Assembly (NCBI GenBank): GCA_030265395.1
Contig: JARFYF010000002.1
Location: forward strand, 39,815,987-39,879,986
Reading direction: 5' to 3'
Length of the DNA stretch: 64,000 bases
Source: Rhina ancylostomus
Lineage: Eukaryota
Below are positions 141-57,666 of the stretch, piece after piece. The stretch's first letter is position 1; each line of letters opens with the position of its first letter. Both the position numbers and the translations under genes were made by a program. The notes under the pieces were generated by a model. That model was not told the DNA's origin. It saw only the letters and a list, made by a program, of their open reading frames with translations, and did no database searches.

Positions 141-2839
141 GTCCACTGACTACCAACAGCAACATTACACTGTACAAATTTACTAAATGTCAGAATTCCC
201 AAAGCCAAGAAGGCTAGGGATCACAGGTTTTATGTGCTCCACTATCTACACAAGTCAGAAAAGAAATGCACCTCGGAATGACCATTCAGTTCATTTTTGA
301 AAGATTAACGAAAATTATTTTTTGTTTCAGACAGCTATCACATTAAAGGCAATCCAAAGTACCATTAATCGTTTACTTAAAAATACAAGTGCCTAATTGT
401 TTCCAGGGCAACAAAGATATCGCCTGGAACCATGGCTCATGATACCTCACTGATCTACCAGGACACCATCCCTGAAAATATACCCTGCCTAAAATCACAA
501 AAGACATTCACTCCGAGTCCAATGCATTTTTGTGTTCATTTCCCTGATCTCTCCATGATGTTTGACATATCAAATATGCCATCCTCCCTCACTGCCTCTC
601 CTCTTATCTAATTCCATTAGATTGCCTCACTCTTCCTTAAATGTACTCATCACATTTTCAATTGATTTTCTTCTACCATCATAATCAACCCTGGACTTCC
701 CCAAGGATGTCATCCTGGCTCCCACCCCCTTATGTAATTATCCACAGGAATGGATATCATCAGCCACTGTGTACGCTGACAGCAAACATATGTACCTGCG
801 CAGAACTTGTCTACACCACATCATTATCACCATGCTGTTATAACTGTCTGACATCAATTTGCGGAAAAATCAGTTTCTCTTCTAATTGAATGCTGAATCC
901 ACTGAAGGCTGTTCTCTGTTGCCAAAGATTCCATTGCTCCCGCTGGCCAGACTCTGAGGCTGAATCAGACAGTTTTATAATCTTGGCATCCTGTTTTACC
1001 CAGGCTGAGTCTCAAACCACATACCATATTTATCAAGACCCTGCACCCTGCTTCTTACTGCACACCTCACCTCTCCTGTTGCTCAAACTCTCCTAAATGC
1101 TTTCATCACTTCTAAATTCAAAGTGAGGATGCTCAAACACAGGTGAGAGAAATGCAGACTGACCTTCAAGCTTTGGGCATTGGTGAATCCACACATACCA
1201 TGGTGAAGAATAACGTGTTAAATAAACATCCTGCAAGGCTGTGTACTTATGGCTAGCTGACTCACCAGTAAACTGCTCACCAACGCAGTTCAGGTTCTGC
1301 CAGCCCTACTTGAGTCAAGAAGTTATCATAATCTTAATCCATGCATGGACACAAGAGCTGAATATCATAGGAAATGTCAAGGCAACAATTGACCAAGTAC
1401 AGTGCAAATATCCCCTATGAAAACTAGTAAATAAGCATCTTTTAGAAAAATCCTTCATTGACTAGAATTTTATACAACCTGAGAAAAGGGTTGCAGTTGT
1501 TAAAAGCCGGTCATCACTGCTCTGGCAAATTACTTCAGGAATTCTTCACTAGAGGGTCCTTATGCCAACCATCATCAGCTGCCTTCATTCATGACTTTCC
1601 GTCTGATAGGAGTGTACCTGTTGGCTGACAATACTATTGTATTCATCTCAGCCACCAATTCCAGTAATGAAACAACCTATGCCGATAAACAACAGGATAG
1701 TAACAAAGTTGGGTCAATAGATGTGATGAGTTTTATCTGTTTCTAAGTGCCAGACATCGAACATGTCCAACAAAAATGTCAAATAATGTCTCACTGACCT
1801 TCATCAGCACCACTATTATCATATCTCAGCACTGAACCTGTGGGGCCAGAAGGTTATCTGGATCAGCCACTTTAACGTTGTAATGACAGAGGACAGGCAA
1901 GATACATTAAAATAAGTAATTTGCTTTTTAGTCTCTCAAAGACTTCACCATCCACAAGGCACAAGCCAGAAGTTTGAGACATATTCAAGATGCTCAATAT
2001 TATTCACATTGGGCCTGTTTACTGGATTGACCCCACTCACTATGATGTCCAATACGGGAGGACCTCAGCTCCAGCATGCATAGTCTTCAACAATTTCTGT
2101 GTCCCTGGGACTATCACGGGAAAGCTTCTTGAGAAAAATACTGCTACTAACTGTATCCTATACTTAATGGACATGTTCAGCACATATTAAATATGATTTA
2201 AGGTAGTATGAAGAAAAGAAAATTATAATTGCCAAGGATGGTTAGTGCACTAAGTTAATGGAAGTGTGTTCCTTTCTTTTGGCTGACCTTGTAAAGTCAC
2301 CAAGTGTTCATTCATTTCCTCCAGATAGATGATACTTTGTAATGGTGGCTGCATTGGTTGGCATTTCCTGCTACTCTTATTTGACAACTTCTCTATGGAC
2401 CCCTCAGTAAACGGCCCTGAATAGAGTCCTCCAGCATCTCACTACATCTGTCATAATTCCTGACCAAATGAAGAAACAGGATGCTCTCTGTCCTCTTGAA
2501 GTGTCAGTTCATAAGTTCCTAAACAATGGTGTTGCTTTCCAAACCACTAAACTTTACCCTGAAAATGCCACAGGCTCCAAACTCCATATTACACTTTTTT
2601 TTACATATTGGAAACTTACTTCCTTTATGCAGTGATGCTGACTCTGAAACCACCCAGTATGTCAATGCATAGTTGGCTGGATGAGTAATCTGCTTGCACT
2701 GTCTTTTAGCCAAGACTTTTATTGGAGATGCTTCAATGAAGAAAATTCCACAAAAGTAAATTAATAATGTGTTAACAACAGTTATTCCTCAGAAATTGAA
2801 CACAAATGGAGGGAAGTCAGGTTTCAGTAATATCGTGCA

Positions 2840-5192: not shown

Positions 5193-7024
5193 TGAGGGGA
5201 GATCCAGGGTTACCTGGACCACCTGGACCTCCAGGACCACCAGGACCCCCAGGCCAAGCAGGATATCCAGGCAAGCCAGGTATTGGGCTGAAAGGAGTTC
5301 CTGGCGATCCAGGACAACCAGGACCACAAGGACTCACTTTAAAGGGTGCTCCAGGCATTCCAGGATCACCAGGACAGCCAGGAAGAATAGGATATCCTGG
5401 ACCAAAAGGTGATCCAGGAGTTCAAGGGATACAAGGGCAGAGAGGCAGTCCAGGGCCTCCAGGAAATCCTGGACCAGCCGGATTGTCAGTTGTTGGAAAA
5501 CCAGGTCCACCAGGGGCATCAGGATCTCCAGGCGTACCTGGATTACCTGGAGCAAAGGGACATCCAGGTTATCCTGGTCCTGCTGGGCCAAAAGGGGAAA
5601 GAGGAATTGGTATCCCAGGACCTGCTGGTGAGAAAGGACCTCCAGGTTCCCCGGGGTCACCAGGAATCCCAGGACCAGTGGGATTAAGTGCACCTGGAGC
5701 TCCTGGTCGCCCTGGGGAACCAGGTAAGAAGGGTGCAATTGGACCACCAGGCCCATCTGGTTTCACAGGTGCACCAGGTCAAAAAGGGCCACCAGGACCA
5801 CCTGGACAACCTGGACTTGGAAAGCCTGGAGCGAATGGTTCACCAGGATTACCAGGGCCCCCTGGTTTTAAAGGTCACCCTGGCTTACAAGGTTTGCCAG
5901 GGGCACCAGGCTTGCCAGGTATTGGAAAGCCAGGTGATCCAGGATCCAAAGGAGAACCTGGTCCAGTTGGTTATACTGGATATCCTGGAAAGAAAGGAGA
6001 GATGGGACCAATTGGGAAACCAGGACCTCCGGGATTAATGGGACCAGCTGGTATACCGGGATCAGAAGGCCTCAGAGGTTTACAAGGAATTCCTGGCTCA
6101 CCGGGTATGAAAGGGGCACCAGGGCACATGGGTATACAAGGCTACCCAGGATCAAAGGGTGAGAGAGGACCAACTGGTAGCCCAGGTATATCAGGACTTC
6201 CAGGAAAACCAGGTCCAACAGGTCTACCAGGACCAATTGGACCTGTGGGTCAAAAAGGTGATCCTGGGCTTACTGGTCCATCTGGTAAACCAGGAAGCCC
6301 TGGTGCTCCTGGTCCTCAAGGTCCGTTAGGTTTTCCAGGTCCAGTAGGTCTGAGAGGACCTGCGGGAACACCTGGTCACAAAGGCTTGCCTGGTTTGAAA
6401 GGTGCACAAGGGCTTCCTGGAAAAGATGGTGCTCCAGGAGCTCCAGGACTACCGGGACCTCCAGGCATTGTTAGCAGACAATTAATCAAGGGTTCACCAG
6501 GAGCACCAGGTCAAAATGGAGCAGTAGGCCCTCCAGGTCCACCAGGTCTTCCAGGCCCACCAGGTTTACCTGGTGAAATTTATGTCCAACCAGAAAAATC
6601 TGTACAGCCACCACCTGGATTATTAAGTCCTGTTCCAGCTTTTACAGCCATTCTATCTCGGCCATATCCACCAGTAGGTCAACCAATTATGTTTGACATA
6701 CTAGTGACCAATTCAAATAACAACTACAATCCAGCATCTGGTGTATTCACATGTGAAATACCAGGGCTTTACCAATTCAGTTACCATGTACAAATCAAGG
6801 GGGCAAGTGTCTGGGTTGCATTATATAAAAATGGAAAACCCATCCTACAAACATATGATGATTACACAACAGGGTATGTTGATCAGGCTTCAGGAAGTAT
6901 TATAGTACACCTACATGATAATGACCAAGTCTATGTATTGCTACCTTCAGAAGAAGCCAATGGTTTATATTCATCTGATGAGAAACAGTCATCATTCTCA
7001 GGATTTTTGATTAGCCCTTCATGA
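5193..7024 (+). CDS. col10a1: collagen type X alpha-1-like copy A, terminal exon (triple helix + C1q/NC1); 5' exons lie upstream of the window
   Basis: About 460 aa of Gly-X-Y with short imperfections, then a C1q domain (AFTAILS...[22 protein letters not shown]...[16 protein letters not shown]...SSFSGFLI). Phase-1 acceptor CTTTCTACCTTCACAG at 5191-5192 precedes VRG, as in vertebrate COL10A1. The track's ATG at 5171 is intronic. Confidence 0.9.
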
Positions 7025-16234: not shown

Positions 16235-16619
16235 GTATGTTTGACCTTTCATTTGTAATCAATTCTGTAAGCATGCAACAAAGGATGTATAAGTCAGGAC
16301 AACACATTCTGCTCATGATTAACTACTCTGTTGATGCGATTCTATTTAATTTAAAATTTTCAGTTTAGTTTGCAAATTTTCTGAATCAATTTATCACAGA
16401 ATTATTAAGCAAAAATACATTAACATTGGCCATTAATTACAAAGGCCTCTCAGAAATGTTTAAAATAATTGCAATTTAGAATCATAGCATACAGTATAAA
16501 AGTACCTTAAACCTTGCAATAATTTTGGTGGTCATTAACAAAAACTCTATTAATTAAAAAATAAAACCACCCTTTTTCTAACAGTTTCTGTTAATGTTCT
16601 ACAGATTTAAACTTCAAAC

Positions 16620-16731
16620 ATGGATTCAAAACAGATCTGTGCTCTTTTGTTGTTGGTTTCTGTGACTTTGGTCTACGGAACAGGATTTAATAGATATGCT
16701 TATTTACGCAAAAATGTAAAAAGCCAAGGGG
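16620..16731 (+). CDS. col10a1: col10a1 copy B exon 2 coding part: signal peptide + start of NC2 (MDSKQICALLLLVSVTLVYGTGFNRYAYLRKNVKSQG)
   Basis: Acceptor TTCTACAG ending 16604, Kozak AACATGG, signal peptide like human COL10A1 LLLVSLNLVHG, phase-1 donor G|GTGAGT; too short for the ORF track. Confidence 0.85.
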
Positions 16732-26085: not shown

Positions 26086-26400
26086 GGGTGAACATCGTGG
26101 CACAGTGATAGTGCTACTGCATCACAGTCTAATGACCTAGGATTGAACCTAACCTTGGAAGATGTCTGCACTGAGTTTGCACATTCTCTCTACAATGCTC
26201 GAGTTTCCACCAGGTGCTCCAGTTTCCTCACAAATCCTAAAGATACGCTGGCAGTTTAATTGCTTATCCTAAGTGTAAGTAGAGTTGATGGATATGAGAG
26301 AAAGAGAGAAAAGTTGTGGCATACAGGGAAATAAGGTGAGGAGGAATGAGATAAATTGGACTGCGCTACTGACAGCCTGAATGGATTCAATGAGCTTCCT
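26086..26400 (+). mobile_element. tRNA-derived SINE (V-SINE/HE1-like), degraded
   Basis: A-box-like GTGGCACAGTG, B-box-like GGATTGAACC, core GAGTTTGCACATTCTC...GGTGCTCCAGTTTCCTC. Confidence 0.65.
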
Positions 26401-27453: not shown

Positions 27454-27690
27454 AGATATTTTTAATAGTCACATGTACATCAAAACATACAGTGAAATGT
27501 GTCTTTTTCCATTACTGAGAATGTGCTGGGGGCAGCCCGCAAGTTTCACCACTCTTCTGGCGCCAACATAACTTGCCCACAACTCCTAACCTGTATGTCT
27601 TTGGAATGTGGGAGGAAACTGGAGCACCAGAAGGAAACCCACGCAGACACACGGGAAGAATGTACAAACTCCTTACAGACAGCAGCAGGA
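27454..27690 (-). mobile_element. tRNA-derived SINE, 5'-truncated
   Basis: Close match to 55089-55380 (CTTTGGAATGTGGGAGGAAAC.GGAGCACC.G.GGAAACCCACGCAGACAC). Confidence 0.75.
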
Positions 27691-28392: not shown

Positions 28393-28464
28393 ATTATCAT
28401 GTAAAAGGATATGATTCTCAGTATTCTGAAGAAGAAGAACAAGAAGACAGTGATGACAGCAGAG
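28393..28464 (+). CDS. col10a1: col10a1 copy B extra 72-nt exon, acidic NC2 segment ([D]YHVKGYDSQYSEEEEQEDSDDSR)
   Basis: Acceptor CTTTCCCAAAATAG, donor GAG|GTGGGT, symmetric phase 1-1, open frame joining exon 2 to the terminal exon; same-length counterpart in copy C. Confidence 0.7.
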
Positions 28465-28741: not shown

Positions 28742-30600
28742 ATTTTGAAGCAGAACAAGGACTACATGGAATACGAGGACCACCAGGCCCACGAGGACCA
28801 CCAGGCCCACAAGGCCACCCAGGGTCCCCTGGAAAAGATGGCATTGGGGTACCAGGAGCCCCTGGCAAACCTGGCAGACCAGGGGCACCAGGACTGTCAG
28901 CTATGGGAAAACCAGGAATACCTGGAGCACCAGGAAGACCAGGTGGAGCAGGAGCCCCAGGAGAAAAGGGCGACAGAGGACCCCAAGGGATTCCAGGACC
29001 CACAGGCAAAGTAGGACCCATAGGATATCCTGGTCCGGCAGGATTATCTGTTGCTGGTAAACCAGGACCCCAAGGGCCACCAGGTTCTGCAGGAGCACCA
29101 GGTCAACGAGGGGAAAGGGGACTGCCAGGGCCCATGGGTCTTCCAGGGGCAAAGGGGGAAATGGGAGTGGGAATGCCTGGGCGTCCTGGTAGCAGAGGGG
29201 AAGGAGGCCCTCAGGGGCCACCAGGCCCGCCTGGACCAGCAGGAATAGGAATGGCTGGTGCTCCTGGTCGTCCAGGTGCACCGGGTGAAAAGGGGGCCAG
29301 GGGCTCACCAGGTCCAACAGGATATACAGGCGCACCAGGCCCAAAAGGACCAGCAGGAAGTCCCGGATTACCTGGAATGGGAAAGCCCGGAAAATCAGGT
29401 GCACCAGGGATGCCAGGAGCCCCTGGAAGTAAGGGTGCCGCTGGTCCACAGGGTTTGCCTGGTGCACCTGGACTGCCTGGTTATGGAAAACCAGGATTAC
29501 CAGGTCTCAAAGGAGAACCTGGTGCTATAGGTGCCACTGGTTACCCAGGTGAGAAAGGAGAGCCAGGACCATCTGGAGCACCTGGAGCTCCTGGATCCAG
29601 AGGATTACCAGGTCCAGCCGGTCCACAAGGCCCAAGAGGCTCAACAGGTGCAATGGGTGCACCAGGAGAGAAAGGTCCTATGGGGCCTGCTGGTCGGCCT
29701 GGATATCCAGGACCTAAGGGTCAGATGGGACCAGCTGGTGCCCCTGGAAAATCAGGAATGCCAGGACTGCCAGGTACACCAGGCCAAGAAGGACAGCAAG
29801 GACCAGCTGGCGCCAAAGGCAGTATGGGACCTGCTGGTGCACCTGGTAAACCAGGAAGCCCTGGCCTTCCAGGTGGTCAAGGACCAGTAGGGTATCCTGG
29901 TGAAGCAGGGGCAAGAGGAAATGCAGGCCCACCTGGCCCAAGAGGTCCAGCTGGCGCTGCAGGTGCTCCAGGGTTTCCTGGAGAAAAAGGAGATCCAGGA
30001 CGTCCTGGCCCACCTGGTCCTCCTGGAACCTTTTATGGGAAAATGAGTAGTGGCCCACCTGGTGCACCTGGAGCAGAAGGACCACCAGGCCCTCCAGGTC
30101 TTCCTGGCCCACCAGGCCCACCAGCAGAAATGTTTACACCACCAGGCAAGTACAATTATAATGGTTACATTAAATCAGGAGAGCCCTCAACTGGGTTGCT
30201 CAGTCCCTACCCAGCCTTTACTGCTATCCTTTCCCACTCATACTACCGTNNNNNNNNNNNNNNAGTATTTGACAAATTAGTGACCAATTCAAATAGGAAC
30301 TATAATCCATCAACTGGCATTTTCACATGTGAAATACCTGGTATCTATCAGTTTACTTATCAGGTGCAAGTCAAGGGAGCAAATGTTTGGGTTGGATTAT
30401 ACAAAAATGATGAGGCTGTGATGTACTCATATGATGACTATACAGAAGGTTATATTGATCAGGTCTCAGGAAGTGTGATCTTATATCTACATGAAAATGA
30501 CCATGTCCATGTTCAGTTACCTACAGAAGAGTCTAATGGTTTATATTCTTCAGACCTCATGCACTCATCATTCTCAGGGTTTCTAATTGTCCATTCATGA
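28742..30600 (+). CDS. col10a1: col10a1 copy B terminal exon (triple helix + C1q/NC1); 14-N gap at 30250-30263
   Basis: Acceptor TTTTCTAAATTACAG at 28741, phase 1 ([D][14 protein letters not shown]...), about 455 aa Gly-X-Y, C1q domain with [16 protein letters not shown] and HSSFSGFLI; spliced CDS 112+72+1859 = 2043 nt (680 aa). Confidence 0.9.
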
Positions 30601-47661: not shown

Positions 47662-49465
47662 CATAGGATAGCTAGAGTGAGGGTAGGACCAATCAGGGAT
47701 AAAAGAGGAAATATGTGCCCGAGTTGGAAGAGGTAGGGGAGGTCTTTAATGAATACTTTGCTTCAGTATTCACTCATGCGAGAGACCTTGACATTTGTGA
47801 GGATAGCGTACAACAAGCTGATACACTAGGGCATGTCGATGTGAGGAAAGAGGATGTGCTGGAACTTCTGAAAAATATTAGGATAAATAAGTCACTGGGG
47901 CCAGACGGGATATATCCAAGGTTATACGGGAAGCCAGGGACGANNNNNNNNNNNNNNNNNNNNNNNNNNNNNNNNNNNNNNNNNNNNNNNNNNNNNNNNN
48001 NNNNNNNNNNNNNNNNNNNNNNNNNNNNNNNNNNNNNNNNNNNNNNNNNNNNNNNNNNNNNNNNNNNNNNNNNNNNNNNNNNNNNNNNNNNNNNNNNNNN
48101 NNNNNNNNNNNNNNNNNNNNNNNNNNNNNNNNNNNNNNNNNNNNNNNNNNNNNNNNNNNNNNNNNNNNNNNNNNNNNNNNNNNNNNNNNNNNNNNNNNNN
48201 NNNNNNNNNNNNNNNNNNNNNNNNNNNNNNNNNNNNNNNNNNNNNNNNNNNNNNNNNNNNNNNNNNNNNNNNNNNNNNNNNNNNNNNNNNNNNNNNNNNN
48301 NNNNNNNNNNNNNNNNNNNNNNNNNNNNNNNNNNNNNNNNNNNNNNNNNNNNNNNNNNNNNNNNNNNNNNNNNNNNNNNNNNNNNNNNNNNNNNNNNNNN
48401 NNNNNNNNNNNNNNNNNNNNNNNNNNNNNNNNNNNNNNNNNNNNNNNNNNNNNNNNNNNNNNNNNNNNNNNNNNNNNNNNNNNNNNNNNNNNNNNNNNNN
48501 NNNNNNNNNNNNNNNNNNNNNNNNNNNNNNNNNNNNNNNNNNNNNNNNNNNNNNNNNNNNNNNNNNNNNNNNNNNNNNNNNNNNNNNNNNNNNNNNNNNN
48601 NNNNNNNNNNNNNNNNNNNNNNNNNNNNNNNNNNNNNNNNNNNNNNNNNNNNNNNNNNNNNNNNNNNNNNNNNNNNNNNNNNNNNNNNNNNNNNNNNNNN
48701 NNNNNNNNNNNNNNNNNNNNNNNNNNNNNNNNNNNNNNNNNNNNNNNNNNNNNNNATTCACTGTGGGGTTGTTGCGAGGAAAGGCACTGGAATGGGCCAC
48801 GGCCATTTGGGACCACCAGCCAGAGACCTGCTTCTCGTTTCACACCTTCATCGAGGAGATGAGAAAGGTCTTTGATCAACATTGTGACATCTGGTTAGAC
48901 CACACTTGGAGTATTGTGTTCAGTACTGGTCATCTTGTTATAGGAAGGATGTGGAAGCTTTAGAGGGGGTGCAGAGGAGATCTACCAGGATGCTGTCTGG
49001 ATTAGAGAGCATGTCTTATGAGGATAGATTGAGCGAACTAGGGCTTTTCTCTTTGTAGAGAAGGAGGGTGAGAGGTGACTTGATAGAGGTGTACAAGATG
49101 ATAAGAAGCACAGATTGAGCAGACAGTCAGAGACTTTTACTCAGGGTGAAAATGACTAACACAAGAGGGCATAATGTTAAGGTGATTGGAGGAAGGTATA
49201 AGGGGGATGTCAGAGGTAAGCTGTTTACACAGAGAGTGGTGGGTGCATGGAACGCACTGTTGGCAGAGGTTGTGGAGGCTGATACATTAGTAACATTTAA
49301 GACAGTCTTAGATAGCCACATGAATGATAGAGAAATGGGAGGGAAGGGTTGACATTTGGGAGGAAAGTACTTGATAGATATTAAAGCAGGATAAAATGTC
49401 GGCACAACATTGTGGTCCAAAAGGCCTGAACTGTGCTGTAGTGTTCTGTGTTTTATGTTCTATCT
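47662..49465 (+). mobile_element. CR1 LINE pieces flanking an ~810-N gap in intron 1 of copy C
   Basis: EVFNEYFASVFT...KSLGPDGIYPRL before the gap; [11 protein letters not shown]...TRGHNVKVIGGRYKGDVRG and TTCTGTGTTTTATGTTCTAT tail after it. Confidence 0.85.
48757..48880 (+). mobile_element. Ty3/Gypsy (Sushi-like) gag fragment
   Basis: GLLRGKALEWATAIWDHQPETCFSFHTFIEEMRKVFD matches the retrotransposon-gag LLxGxALxWA...W...F..E...VF pattern. Confidence 0.7.
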
Positions 49466-49664
49466 GGTGTGCTTTTCCTCTTTCCACAGATGTGAGTGAA
49501 AATGCCTGTCAAACTTTGAAATTGACAACTGTTTTATCAAAGTAGTTTTTGCTCATGTAAAAATTGGAGGGAAATATATTGCATTGCCTCAACTCAAATG
49601 TCCTTGAATGTTGTTTTCTTTTAATGCTTCTCAATGTTGCTTTTTCTAACATTATAGATGCAAC

Positions 49665-49776
49665 ATGGTTTCAAAAGAAATTAGTGCACTTCTGCTATTG
49701 CTACCACTGAACCTGGTTTATGGAACTGATCTTATCAGATATGTATATCCAGCCTATAATATAAAAAGCTACGGGA
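49665..49776 (+). CDS. col10a1: col10a1 copy C exon 2 coding part: signal peptide + start of NC2 (MVSKEISALLLLLPLNLVYGTDLIRYVYPAYNIKSYG)
   Basis: Acceptor TTTTTCTAACATTATAG at 49657, Kozak AACATGG, 112 coding nt as in copy B, phase-1 donor A|GTAAGT, ungapped similarity to copy B exon 2. Confidence 0.85.
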
Positions 49777-57594: not shown

Positions 57595-57666
57595 GCAATG
57601 AAATAAATTTGCATCATTCAGCAAGCAAAGAAGACAGTGAGCATAACAGCAACTCAAAATCTGCAA
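57595..57666 (+). CDS. col10a1: col10a1 copy C extra 72-nt exon, Ser/His/acidic NC2 segment ([S]NEINLHHSASKEDSEHNSNSKSA)
   Basis: Long polypyrimidine tract + CAAAAATAG acceptor, donor A|GTAAGC, exactly 72 nt, phase 1-1, open in the frame set by exon 2; shares AAGAAGACAGTGA with the copy B mini-exon. Confidence 0.6.

What the first reader, a model, noticed from the sequence alone, without database searches (positions are those of the whole stretch)
28393..28464. Extra 72-nt exon gives collagen X copy B a poly-acidic, potentially phosphorylated NC2 tract
Seen: a symmetric phase-1 exon with canonical splice sites encoding DYHVKGYDSQYSEEEEQEDSDDSR (10 of 24 residues D/E, 4 Ser, 3 Tyr, an S-E-E motif), in frame between the signal-peptide and helix exons. 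Known: mammalian COL10A1 has only two coding exons and a non-acidic NC2; S-x-E is the FAM20C consensus typical of calcium-binding SCPP/SIBLING proteins, a family much reduced in cartilaginous fishes. Inference: a collagen X paralogue carrying its own mineral-binding tag could act in tesseral cartilage, tooth or denticle mineralisation. I cannot verify whether this exon is already described.
Basis: partly seen in the sequence, partly recalled or inferred. Interest (0 to 1): 0.8.

Follow-up and report, generated by a model that had tools for sequence, protein, structure and literature searches.

The report
Acidic exon of ray collagen X
This small exon adds a short acidic tail to one of the duplicated collagen X genes of sharks and rays; the exon is real and may help mineralise cartilage and teeth, but the tail was already described in 2019.

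Summary
The exon is real: 72 nt, AG/GT, phase 1 at both ends, in frame, 10 of 24 residues D/E. Copy B is Col10a1.4 of the elasmobranch tandem cluster, between Col10a1.3 (copy A) and Col10a1.5, which begins at 49665. Debiais-Thibaud et al. 2019 (PMC6759074) already reported this acidic motif in Col10a1.4, and the window peptide fits their consensus. Their catshark cDNA probe spans both junctions with an 81-nt orthologous block (13 of 23 residues identical, by eye), so the exon is spliced and conserved. The tract is not private to copy B: paralogues .2, .5 and .6 have such tracts. The FAM20C site is weakly conserved: S-x-E here, S-x-D in catshark. Not found in print: the tract is a separate phase-1 exon and resembles the repeat unit of the Col10a1.5 SE domain, in the same register. 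That points to exon duplication converging on SCPP-like chemistry. Mineral binding and phosphorylation are untested. Verdict: already known, with a modest gene-structure addendum.

The parts
16605..16731 (+). Col10a1.4 (copy B) signal-peptide exon; ATG at 16620, 37 codons plus 1 nt, phase-1 donor
   Evidence: signal peptide matches the thornback-ray Col10a1.4 row at 21 of 22 residues by eye
28393..28464 (+). 72-nt symmetric phase-1 exon encoding the acidic NC2 tract of Col10a1.4; the Ser of the S-x-E site and of the published motif is at 28425-28427
   Evidence: orthologous 81-nt block in catshark cDNA probe; published consensus matched at residues 49-62
28742..30600 (+). Col10a1.4 helix plus C1q (NC1) exon up to the stop codon; 14-N gap at 30250-30263
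   Evidence: Pfam Collagen and C1q; best single-domain PDB match is collagen X 1GR3, E 1e-45; about 151 triplets with 9 register shifts by a crude count
5193..7024 (+). Copy A helix plus C1q exon, Col10a1.3
   Evidence: by-eye match to the Col10a1.3 rows; 61.5% identity to copy B
331..348 (+). Candidate 18-nt phase-1 micro-exon of copy A with a GC donor; encodes the Y-H-I-K start of the module without the acidic part; unverified
   Evidence: 5 of 1500 simulated stretches give this motif in phase after a YAG
49658..49776 (+). Signal-peptide exon of a third copy, Col10a1.5; ATG at 49665, 112 coding nt, phase 1
   Evidence: 35 of 37 identical to the Col10a1.5-type N-terminus in P0124
57595..57666 (+). 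72-nt symmetric phase-1 exon, first NC2/SE-region exon of Col10a1.5
   Evidence: 18 of 23 identical to P0124, 0 of 5000 shuffles reach the score

Best explanation
The feature is the middle coding exon of elasmobranch Col10a1.4. It encodes the short acidic NC2 domain already reported for that paralogue (identity about 0.97). Shown: splicing in frame places about 10 carboxylates between the signal peptide and the triple helix. This turns the stretch from residue 22 to the first Gly-Pro-Pro from net basic (3 D/E, 5 K/R) to net acidic (13 D/E, 7 K/R). Inferred: the C1q domain trimerises the chains, so three flexible acidic tails sit together at the N-end of each molecule. The Golgi kinase FAM20C may phosphorylate the invariant Ser. 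The cluster would then bind Ca2+ or nascent calcium phosphate and position or tune apatite deposition in the matrix of odontoblasts and mineralising vertebral chondrocytes, where this paralogue is expressed (function about 0.55). Inferred origin: one copy of a small phase-1 exon module old in the tandem cluster and multiplied in Col10a1.5, convergent with SCPP proteins and not borrowed from them.
For: Splice anatomy and chance tests. Catshark cDNA probe includes the block: 13 of 23 residues identical, 5 of these 13 through synonymous changes, a 9-nt in-frame indel, and 9 D/E in both species (by eye). The published motif matches. Paralogue assignment and the order .3-.4-.5. Col10a1.4 is at 194 TPM in catshark vertebra and 110 in jaw, the only copy detected in mineralising vertebral tissue, a pattern seen again in 2026. 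Charge is kept while sequence drifts, as expected of a mineral-binding disordered tract (inference). Similarity to SE repeat units: 3 of 5000 shuffles reach the score for unit 5 and 13 of 5000 for unit 1, and the boundary register is the same.
Against: No binding or phosphorylation data exist in the papers I read. The S-x-E is S-x-D in catshark, and FAM20C strongly prefers Glu at +2. The tract is short, with a single canonical site. fam20c expression was described in ameloblasts in the passages I read, whereas .4 is odontoblastic and chondrocytic. Acidic tracts also occur in paralogues not detected in the endoskeleton, so the tract does not explain the tissue role of .4. Units 2 and 4 of the SE domain are not significantly similar (531 and 310 of 5000 shuffles), unit 3 is marginal (64 of 5000), and exon B versus exon C is not similar at all (2422 of 5000 protein; 860 of 2000 DNA). 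No Pfam hit, DMP1 included, for the exon.
Confidence: 0.6

Rival explanations
1. The tract is a charged flexible spacer that affects solubility, secretion or network assembly (for example pairing with the basic stretch just upstream or with other matrix proteins) and does not act on mineral directly.
For: It is short, tolerates an indel, and the canonical FAM20C site is not conserved. A Lys/Arg/Tyr-rich stretch directly precedes it. The 2019 paper states that domain functions are unknown.
Against: Acidic or Ser tracts recur at this site in four paralogues expressed in mineralising cells and are greatly expanded, with many S-x-E sites, in Col10a1.5.
Confidence: 0.25
2. The tract is clipped off and acts as a free acidic (phospho)peptide that inhibits or limits crystal growth, in the manner of ASARM-type peptides (analogy recalled, not from a call).
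For: It is N-terminal, outside the helix, and ends in a conserved Ser-Arg-Asp at the junction in ray and catshark. Hyperphosphorylated acidic proteins can inhibit mineralisation (passage).
Against: No cleavage data; one canonical phosphosite; no sequence relation to known inhibitory peptides was tested or found (Pfam blank).
Confidence: 0.1
3. The exon is a regulated cassette giving acidic and non-acidic isoforms of Col10a1.4 in different tissues (compatible with the best explanation, but it would add a switch).
For: The exon is symmetric and skipping recreates an Asp codon in frame. The acceptor is only moderately pyrimidine-rich (0.59).
Against: The only cDNA seen includes it. The 2019 main text has no word starting with 'splic'.
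Confidence: 0.12
4. The segment is intron sequence that looks like an exon by chance.
For: 385 symmetric stop-free AG..GT segments exist in this intron; no transcript from this species was seen.
Against: 0 of 150 simulated introns give such a candidate; an orthologous cDNA contains it in frame; it fits a published motif.
Confidence: 0.01

Closest known systems
Elasmobranch Col10a1.4 short acidic domain (Debiais-Thibaud et al. 2019, PMC6759074)
   Same: [quoted passage not shown]
   Different: The paper gives a protein motif only. Its main text does not describe exon structure, intron phase, splicing or FAM20C (0 hits for fam20, splic, phase; 0 for phosphorylat). The ray tract is 3 residues shorter than in catshark and has S-x-E instead of S-x-D.
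Col10a1.5 SE (serine-rich acidic) domain, same paper
   Same: Same position in a neighbouring paralogue; built of 21-26-residue units that begin 3 residues before a [VT]-K-G motif, as this exon does.
   Different: Much longer (232-residue N-terminus in P0124), richer in Ser, many S-x-E sites; the paper reports a DMP1-superfamily annotation for it. Here there is one unit.
SCPP/SIBLING acidic proteins (DMP1; elasmobranch Scpp, Leurs et al. 2022, PMC9122587)
   Same: Secreted, small exon, D/E-rich, Tyr-containing, S-x-E site; expressed in mineralising cells.
   Different: Introns are phase 1 here versus mostly phase 0; the tract is fused to a collagen helix and C1q domain; the locus is Col10a1, not sparc-L.
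Tetrapod COL10A1
   Same: Signal peptide, NC2, interrupted helix, C1q NC1; best single-domain PDB match 1GR3.
   Different: Two coding exons and a non-acidic NC2 (recalled; searches did not confirm it); single copy.

Membership tests
Collagen X (Col10a1) | Signal peptide, short NC2, one interrupted Gly-X-Y domain, C-terminal C1q domain | tested here: met
   Pfam Collagen E 4.8e-64 and C1q E 8.9e-32; about 151 triplets; signal peptide judged by likeness to published rows, no predictor run
Collagen X (Col10a1) | C1q domain closer to collagen X than to collagen VIII | tested here: met
   1GR3 157.8 bits versus 1O91 144.7 bits; the higher-scoring 4DOU is a three-domain adiponectin fusion at 86 bits per domain; no tree built
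Collagen X (Col10a1) | Location in intron 6 of Nt5dc1, near Frk | not tested
   No Nt5dc1 or Frk exon was searched for; three tandem copies in the published order are present
Col10a1.4 paralogue group | Closest to published Col10a1.4 sequences | tested here: met
   By eye: signal peptide 21 of 22 identical to the thornback-ray .4 row, helix follows skate and ray .4 rows; only 61-64% identity to copy A and to the two P0124 copies
Col10a1.4 paralogue group | Published short acidic motif between signal peptide and helix | tested here: met
   Regex match at residues 49-62 of the spliced frame; its first 11 positions match only once in six frames of the window
Col10a1.4 paralogue group | Position between Col10a1.3 and Col10a1.5 | tested here: met
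   Copy A upstream, Col10a1.5 exons at 49665 and 57595
SCPP/SIBLING | Coding introns mostly phase 0 | tested here: not met
   Both introns are phase 1; criterion
SCPP/SIBLING | Origin from the sparc-L locus with a Sparc-type signal peptide | tested here: not met
   Signal exon is paralogous to that of the neighbouring Col10a1 copy (57%); the gene is a collagen with C1q
SCPP/SIBLING | D/E-rich region with S-x-E site | tested here: met
   10 of 24 D/E, one S-x-E
DMP1 domain (PF07263) | Profile match | tested here: not met
   No Pfam family at E up to 1 for the 23-aa exon, and no DMP1 hit for P0124 either; a 23-aa query has little power
FAM20C substrates | Glu at +2 conserved across orthologues | tested here: not met
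   Present here; Asp in catshark; the published consensus allows E or D
FAM20C substrates | Actual phosphorylation in the secretory pathway | not testable with these tools
   Needs a kinase assay or phosphoproteomics

The most novel reading that the evidence does not exclude
The 72-nt exon is the single-copy form of a phase-1 exon module (about 21-27 codons, starting x-x-x-[VI]-K-G and followed by a Ser/acidic run). The module was present early in the chondrichthyan Col10a1 tandem cluster. It was multiplied by exon duplication into the DMP1-like SE domain of Col10a1.5, kept once in .4 (and probably .2 and .6), and cut to a non-acidic micro-exon in .3. Cartilaginous fishes would then have built a graded series of collagen-tethered SCPP mimics by changing exon dosage, independently of the sparc-L route.
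Probability: 0.5. Interest if true: 0.5.

Novelty: already known. Interest (0 to 1): 0.25.

Why it matters
Col10a1.4 is the one collagen X copy found in the mineralising endoskeleton of the catshark. If its acidic tail binds mineral, it is a direct handle on how cartilaginous fishes calcify cartilage with few SCPP genes. That idea is in print since 2019 for the paralogue family. What this window adds is a clean experimental unit: a symmetric exon that can be deleted in frame. It also gives a testable account of how the SE domain of Col10a1.5 was assembled. Specialists would find this useful but not surprising.

Tried and rejected
Homologue searches gave few chondrichthyan sequences. One search (C1q region) found 3 proteins among 94 candidates, none chondrichthyan. 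One search (helix) returned generic collagens. One search (signal exon) found 1 hit among 12 candidates, an intron read-through ORF that says nothing on splicing. The representative search (best 150 of 1463 listed) gave one useful protein among the 8 I opened, P0124, a fused .5 plus .6 gene model, not a .4 orthologue. Pfam was blank for the exon, the signal exon and exon C. Direct homology of exon B with exon C (57595) was rejected despite the equal length of 72 nt. No local duplicate of the exon was found by blastn or tblastn or the repeat finder. SCPP exon capture was rejected on intron phase and locus. Alternative acceptors inside the exon (28408, 28432, 28435; AAG) are weaker and would drop the conserved first half. 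Literature searches for an exon-level description returned only the 2019 motif description. No fold or complex prediction was run, since a 24-residue acidic tract would not be informative.

Full report
Observation. 28393-28464 is 72 nt between an AG acceptor and a GAG|GTGGGT donor. The upstream coding exon runs from the ATG at 16620 to 16731 (112 nt, phase 1), and the helix exon starts at 28742 in phase 1. Both junction codons read Asp, and the three exons form a 680-residue frame without internal stop. The residue counts in the finding are correct. The 12-kb intron holds 385 stop-free symmetric AG..GT segments; 6 pass simple splice-site filters, and only this one is acidic. Across the + strand of the window it ranks joint first of 185 candidates for D/E/S content. 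None of 150 simulated introns produced a candidate with at least 39% D/E. My splice scores are crude consensus counts, not a trained model.

What the gene is. The long exon encodes a collagen helix and a C1q domain (Pfam). Its best single-domain structure match is collagen X (1GR3, 157.8 bits), ahead of collagen VIII (144.7 bits). The window holds three tandem copies: copy A (5193-7024), copy B, and a third whose signal exon is at 49665-49776 with a second 72-nt phase-1 exon at 57595-57666. Debiais-Thibaud et al. 2019 (PMC6759074) describe six tandem Col10a1 copies in elasmobranchs. By eye against their alignment rows, copy A follows Col10a1.3 and copy B follows Col10a1.4; the signal peptide matches thornback ray .4 at 21 of 22 residues and the helix is nearer to skate and ray than to shark, so the window is probably from a batoid. 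The third copy matches a Col10a1.5-type model, P0124, at 35 of 37 and 18 of 23 residues. The order .3.4.5 is the published one. I built no tree and did not look for Nt5dc1.

The tract is already described. The paper reports a serine-rich acidic (SE) domain in Col10a1.5, likened to DMP1, and short domains in Col10a1.2 and Col10a1.4 at the same position, and gives a consensus for the .4 domain. That consensus matches the spliced frame at residues 49-62, the last residue being the junction Asp. The discussion proposes convergence on SCPP-like chemistry for the SE domain. Col10a1.4 is at 110 TPM in catshark jaw and 194 in vertebra. It is expressed in odontoblasts and is the only copy detected in mineralising vertebral tissue; no copy was detected in Meckel's cartilage at that stage. 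A 2026 paper shows the same vertebral pattern (PMC13188829).

Transcript evidence. The catshark Col10a1.4 riboprobe in the supplement starts in the signal exon and runs into the helix through an 81-nt block. By eye, not by tool: 22 of 24 residues are identical in the signal-exon part; in the block 13 of 23 are identical, 5 of those 13 through synonymous changes; there is a 9-nt in-frame indel; 9 residues are D/E in both species; and both junction Asp residues are kept. This is one orthologue. I saw no transcript from the window's species, and skipping would stay in frame.

The tract is not private to copy B: the paper names .2 and .5, and the .6 probe and P0124 show an acidic, Ser-rich stretch before the .6 helix (8 D/E and 6 Ser in 30 residues). 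The one S-x-E site is S-x-D in catshark, which has no S-x-E in the tract, and FAM20C strongly prefers Glu at +2 (PMC12650399). Elasmobranchs have an scpp gene and S-x-E-rich Sparc-L and Spp2 proteins (PMC9122587). The exon has no Pfam match. It is not an SCPP exon: both introns are phase 1, whereas scpp introns are mostly phase 0.

What I did not find in print. The 2019 main text has no hit for fam20, splic, phase or phosphorylat, and the 12 'exon'/'intron' passages shown concern synteny. Searches found no exon-level account. The library lacks most subscription journals and theses, and annotated genomes very likely contain the exon (inference). The N-terminus of P0124 has five [VT]-K-G motifs spaced 21, 24, 25 and 26 residues apart. 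The exon peptide scores above composition shuffles against unit 5 (9 of 22 identical; 3 of 5000 shuffles) and unit 1 (13 of 5000), marginally against unit 3 (64), and not against units 2 and 4 (531, 310). The donor at 57666 puts the next unit's first residue 3 before its V-K-G, the same offset as in this exon, and all five such residues (Ser or Asn) can be coded across a phase-1 A|nn split. This suggests that the SE domain is a tandem array of exons like this one; the genomic exons lie beyond the window, so it remains a prediction. Exon B and exon C are not alike despite equal length. A Y-H-I-K-G after a strong in-phase acceptor at 331, with a possible GC donor after 348, may be the truncated equivalent in copy A (5 of 1500 simulations; pattern chosen after seeing it).

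Mechanism. Shown: inclusion changes the stretch from residue 22 to the first Gly-Pro-Pro from 3 D/E and 5 K/R to 13 D/E and 7 K/R. From general knowledge (recalled): collagen X trimerises through C1q and forms pericellular networks. Inferred: three acidic tails per molecule, possibly phosphorylated on the invariant Ser, concentrate Ca2+ or bind nascent apatite in dentine and mineralising vertebral matrix. I put this at about 0.55, a spacer or assembly role at 0.25, and a released inhibitory peptide at 0.1; a regulated cassette (0.12) is compatible with any of them. That mammalian COL10A1 has two coding exons and a non-acidic NC2 is recalled; searches did not confirm it.

What was read. PMC6759074: abstract, all Results, part 1 of 2 of Discussion and of Methods, keyword passages, and supplement parts 1, 2, 3, 6, 7, 8 of 8. 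Rows there are cut at about 400 characters, two PDF pages are pictures, and the alignment cited for the short motifs is trimmed and does not show them, so I could not see which species underlie the consensus. PMC13188829, PMC9122587, PMC8727550, PMC7217701, PMC8706311, PMC12650399: keyword passages only, no supplements. Others: search listings only.

Verdict. A real, conserved exon encoding a published motif of a published gene, with the mineralisation idea already voiced for the family. Novelty: already known. Interest 0.25, for the exon-module addendum and the clean deletion test it offers.

Noticed in passing
window 49658-49776 and 57595-57666 (+): A third tandem copy, Col10a1.5, begins in the window: signal exon and a first 72-nt phase-1 NC2 exon; its SE-domain exons lie beyond 64000.
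   Followed up: yes
window 331-348 (+): Strong acceptor followed in phase by S-Y-H-I-K and a possible GC donor: a candidate non-acidic micro-exon or remnant for copy A (Col10a1.3), with a GC-AG intron to 5193.
   Followed up: partly
P0124 residues 504-735 and 1697-1727: Fused gene model of Col10a1.5 and .6 with retrotransposon-derived pieces (RVT_1); the SE domain is made of 21-26-residue units each starting 3 residues before [VT]-K-G.
   Followed up: partly
window 30250-30263: 14-N gap inside the C1q-coding part of copy B; the frame is kept across it.
   Followed up: no
window 47703-47943 (+): ORF fragment before an 812-N gap that looks like a CR1/LINE retroelement piece (judged from memory, no search).
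   Followed up: no
window 26196-26243 and 27598-27645: 48-nt inverted pair, 79% complementary, in the intron upstream of the exon; probably two copies of a dispersed repeat.
   Followed up: no
window 28751 and 28754: Two further in-phase AG acceptors just inside the helix exon could trim 3 or 4 residues after the acidic tract.
   Followed up: no
P0005: Catfish gene model fusing a collagen X helix to a Fyn kinase, probably an annotation artefact of the col10a1a-fyna neighbourhood named.
   Followed up: no
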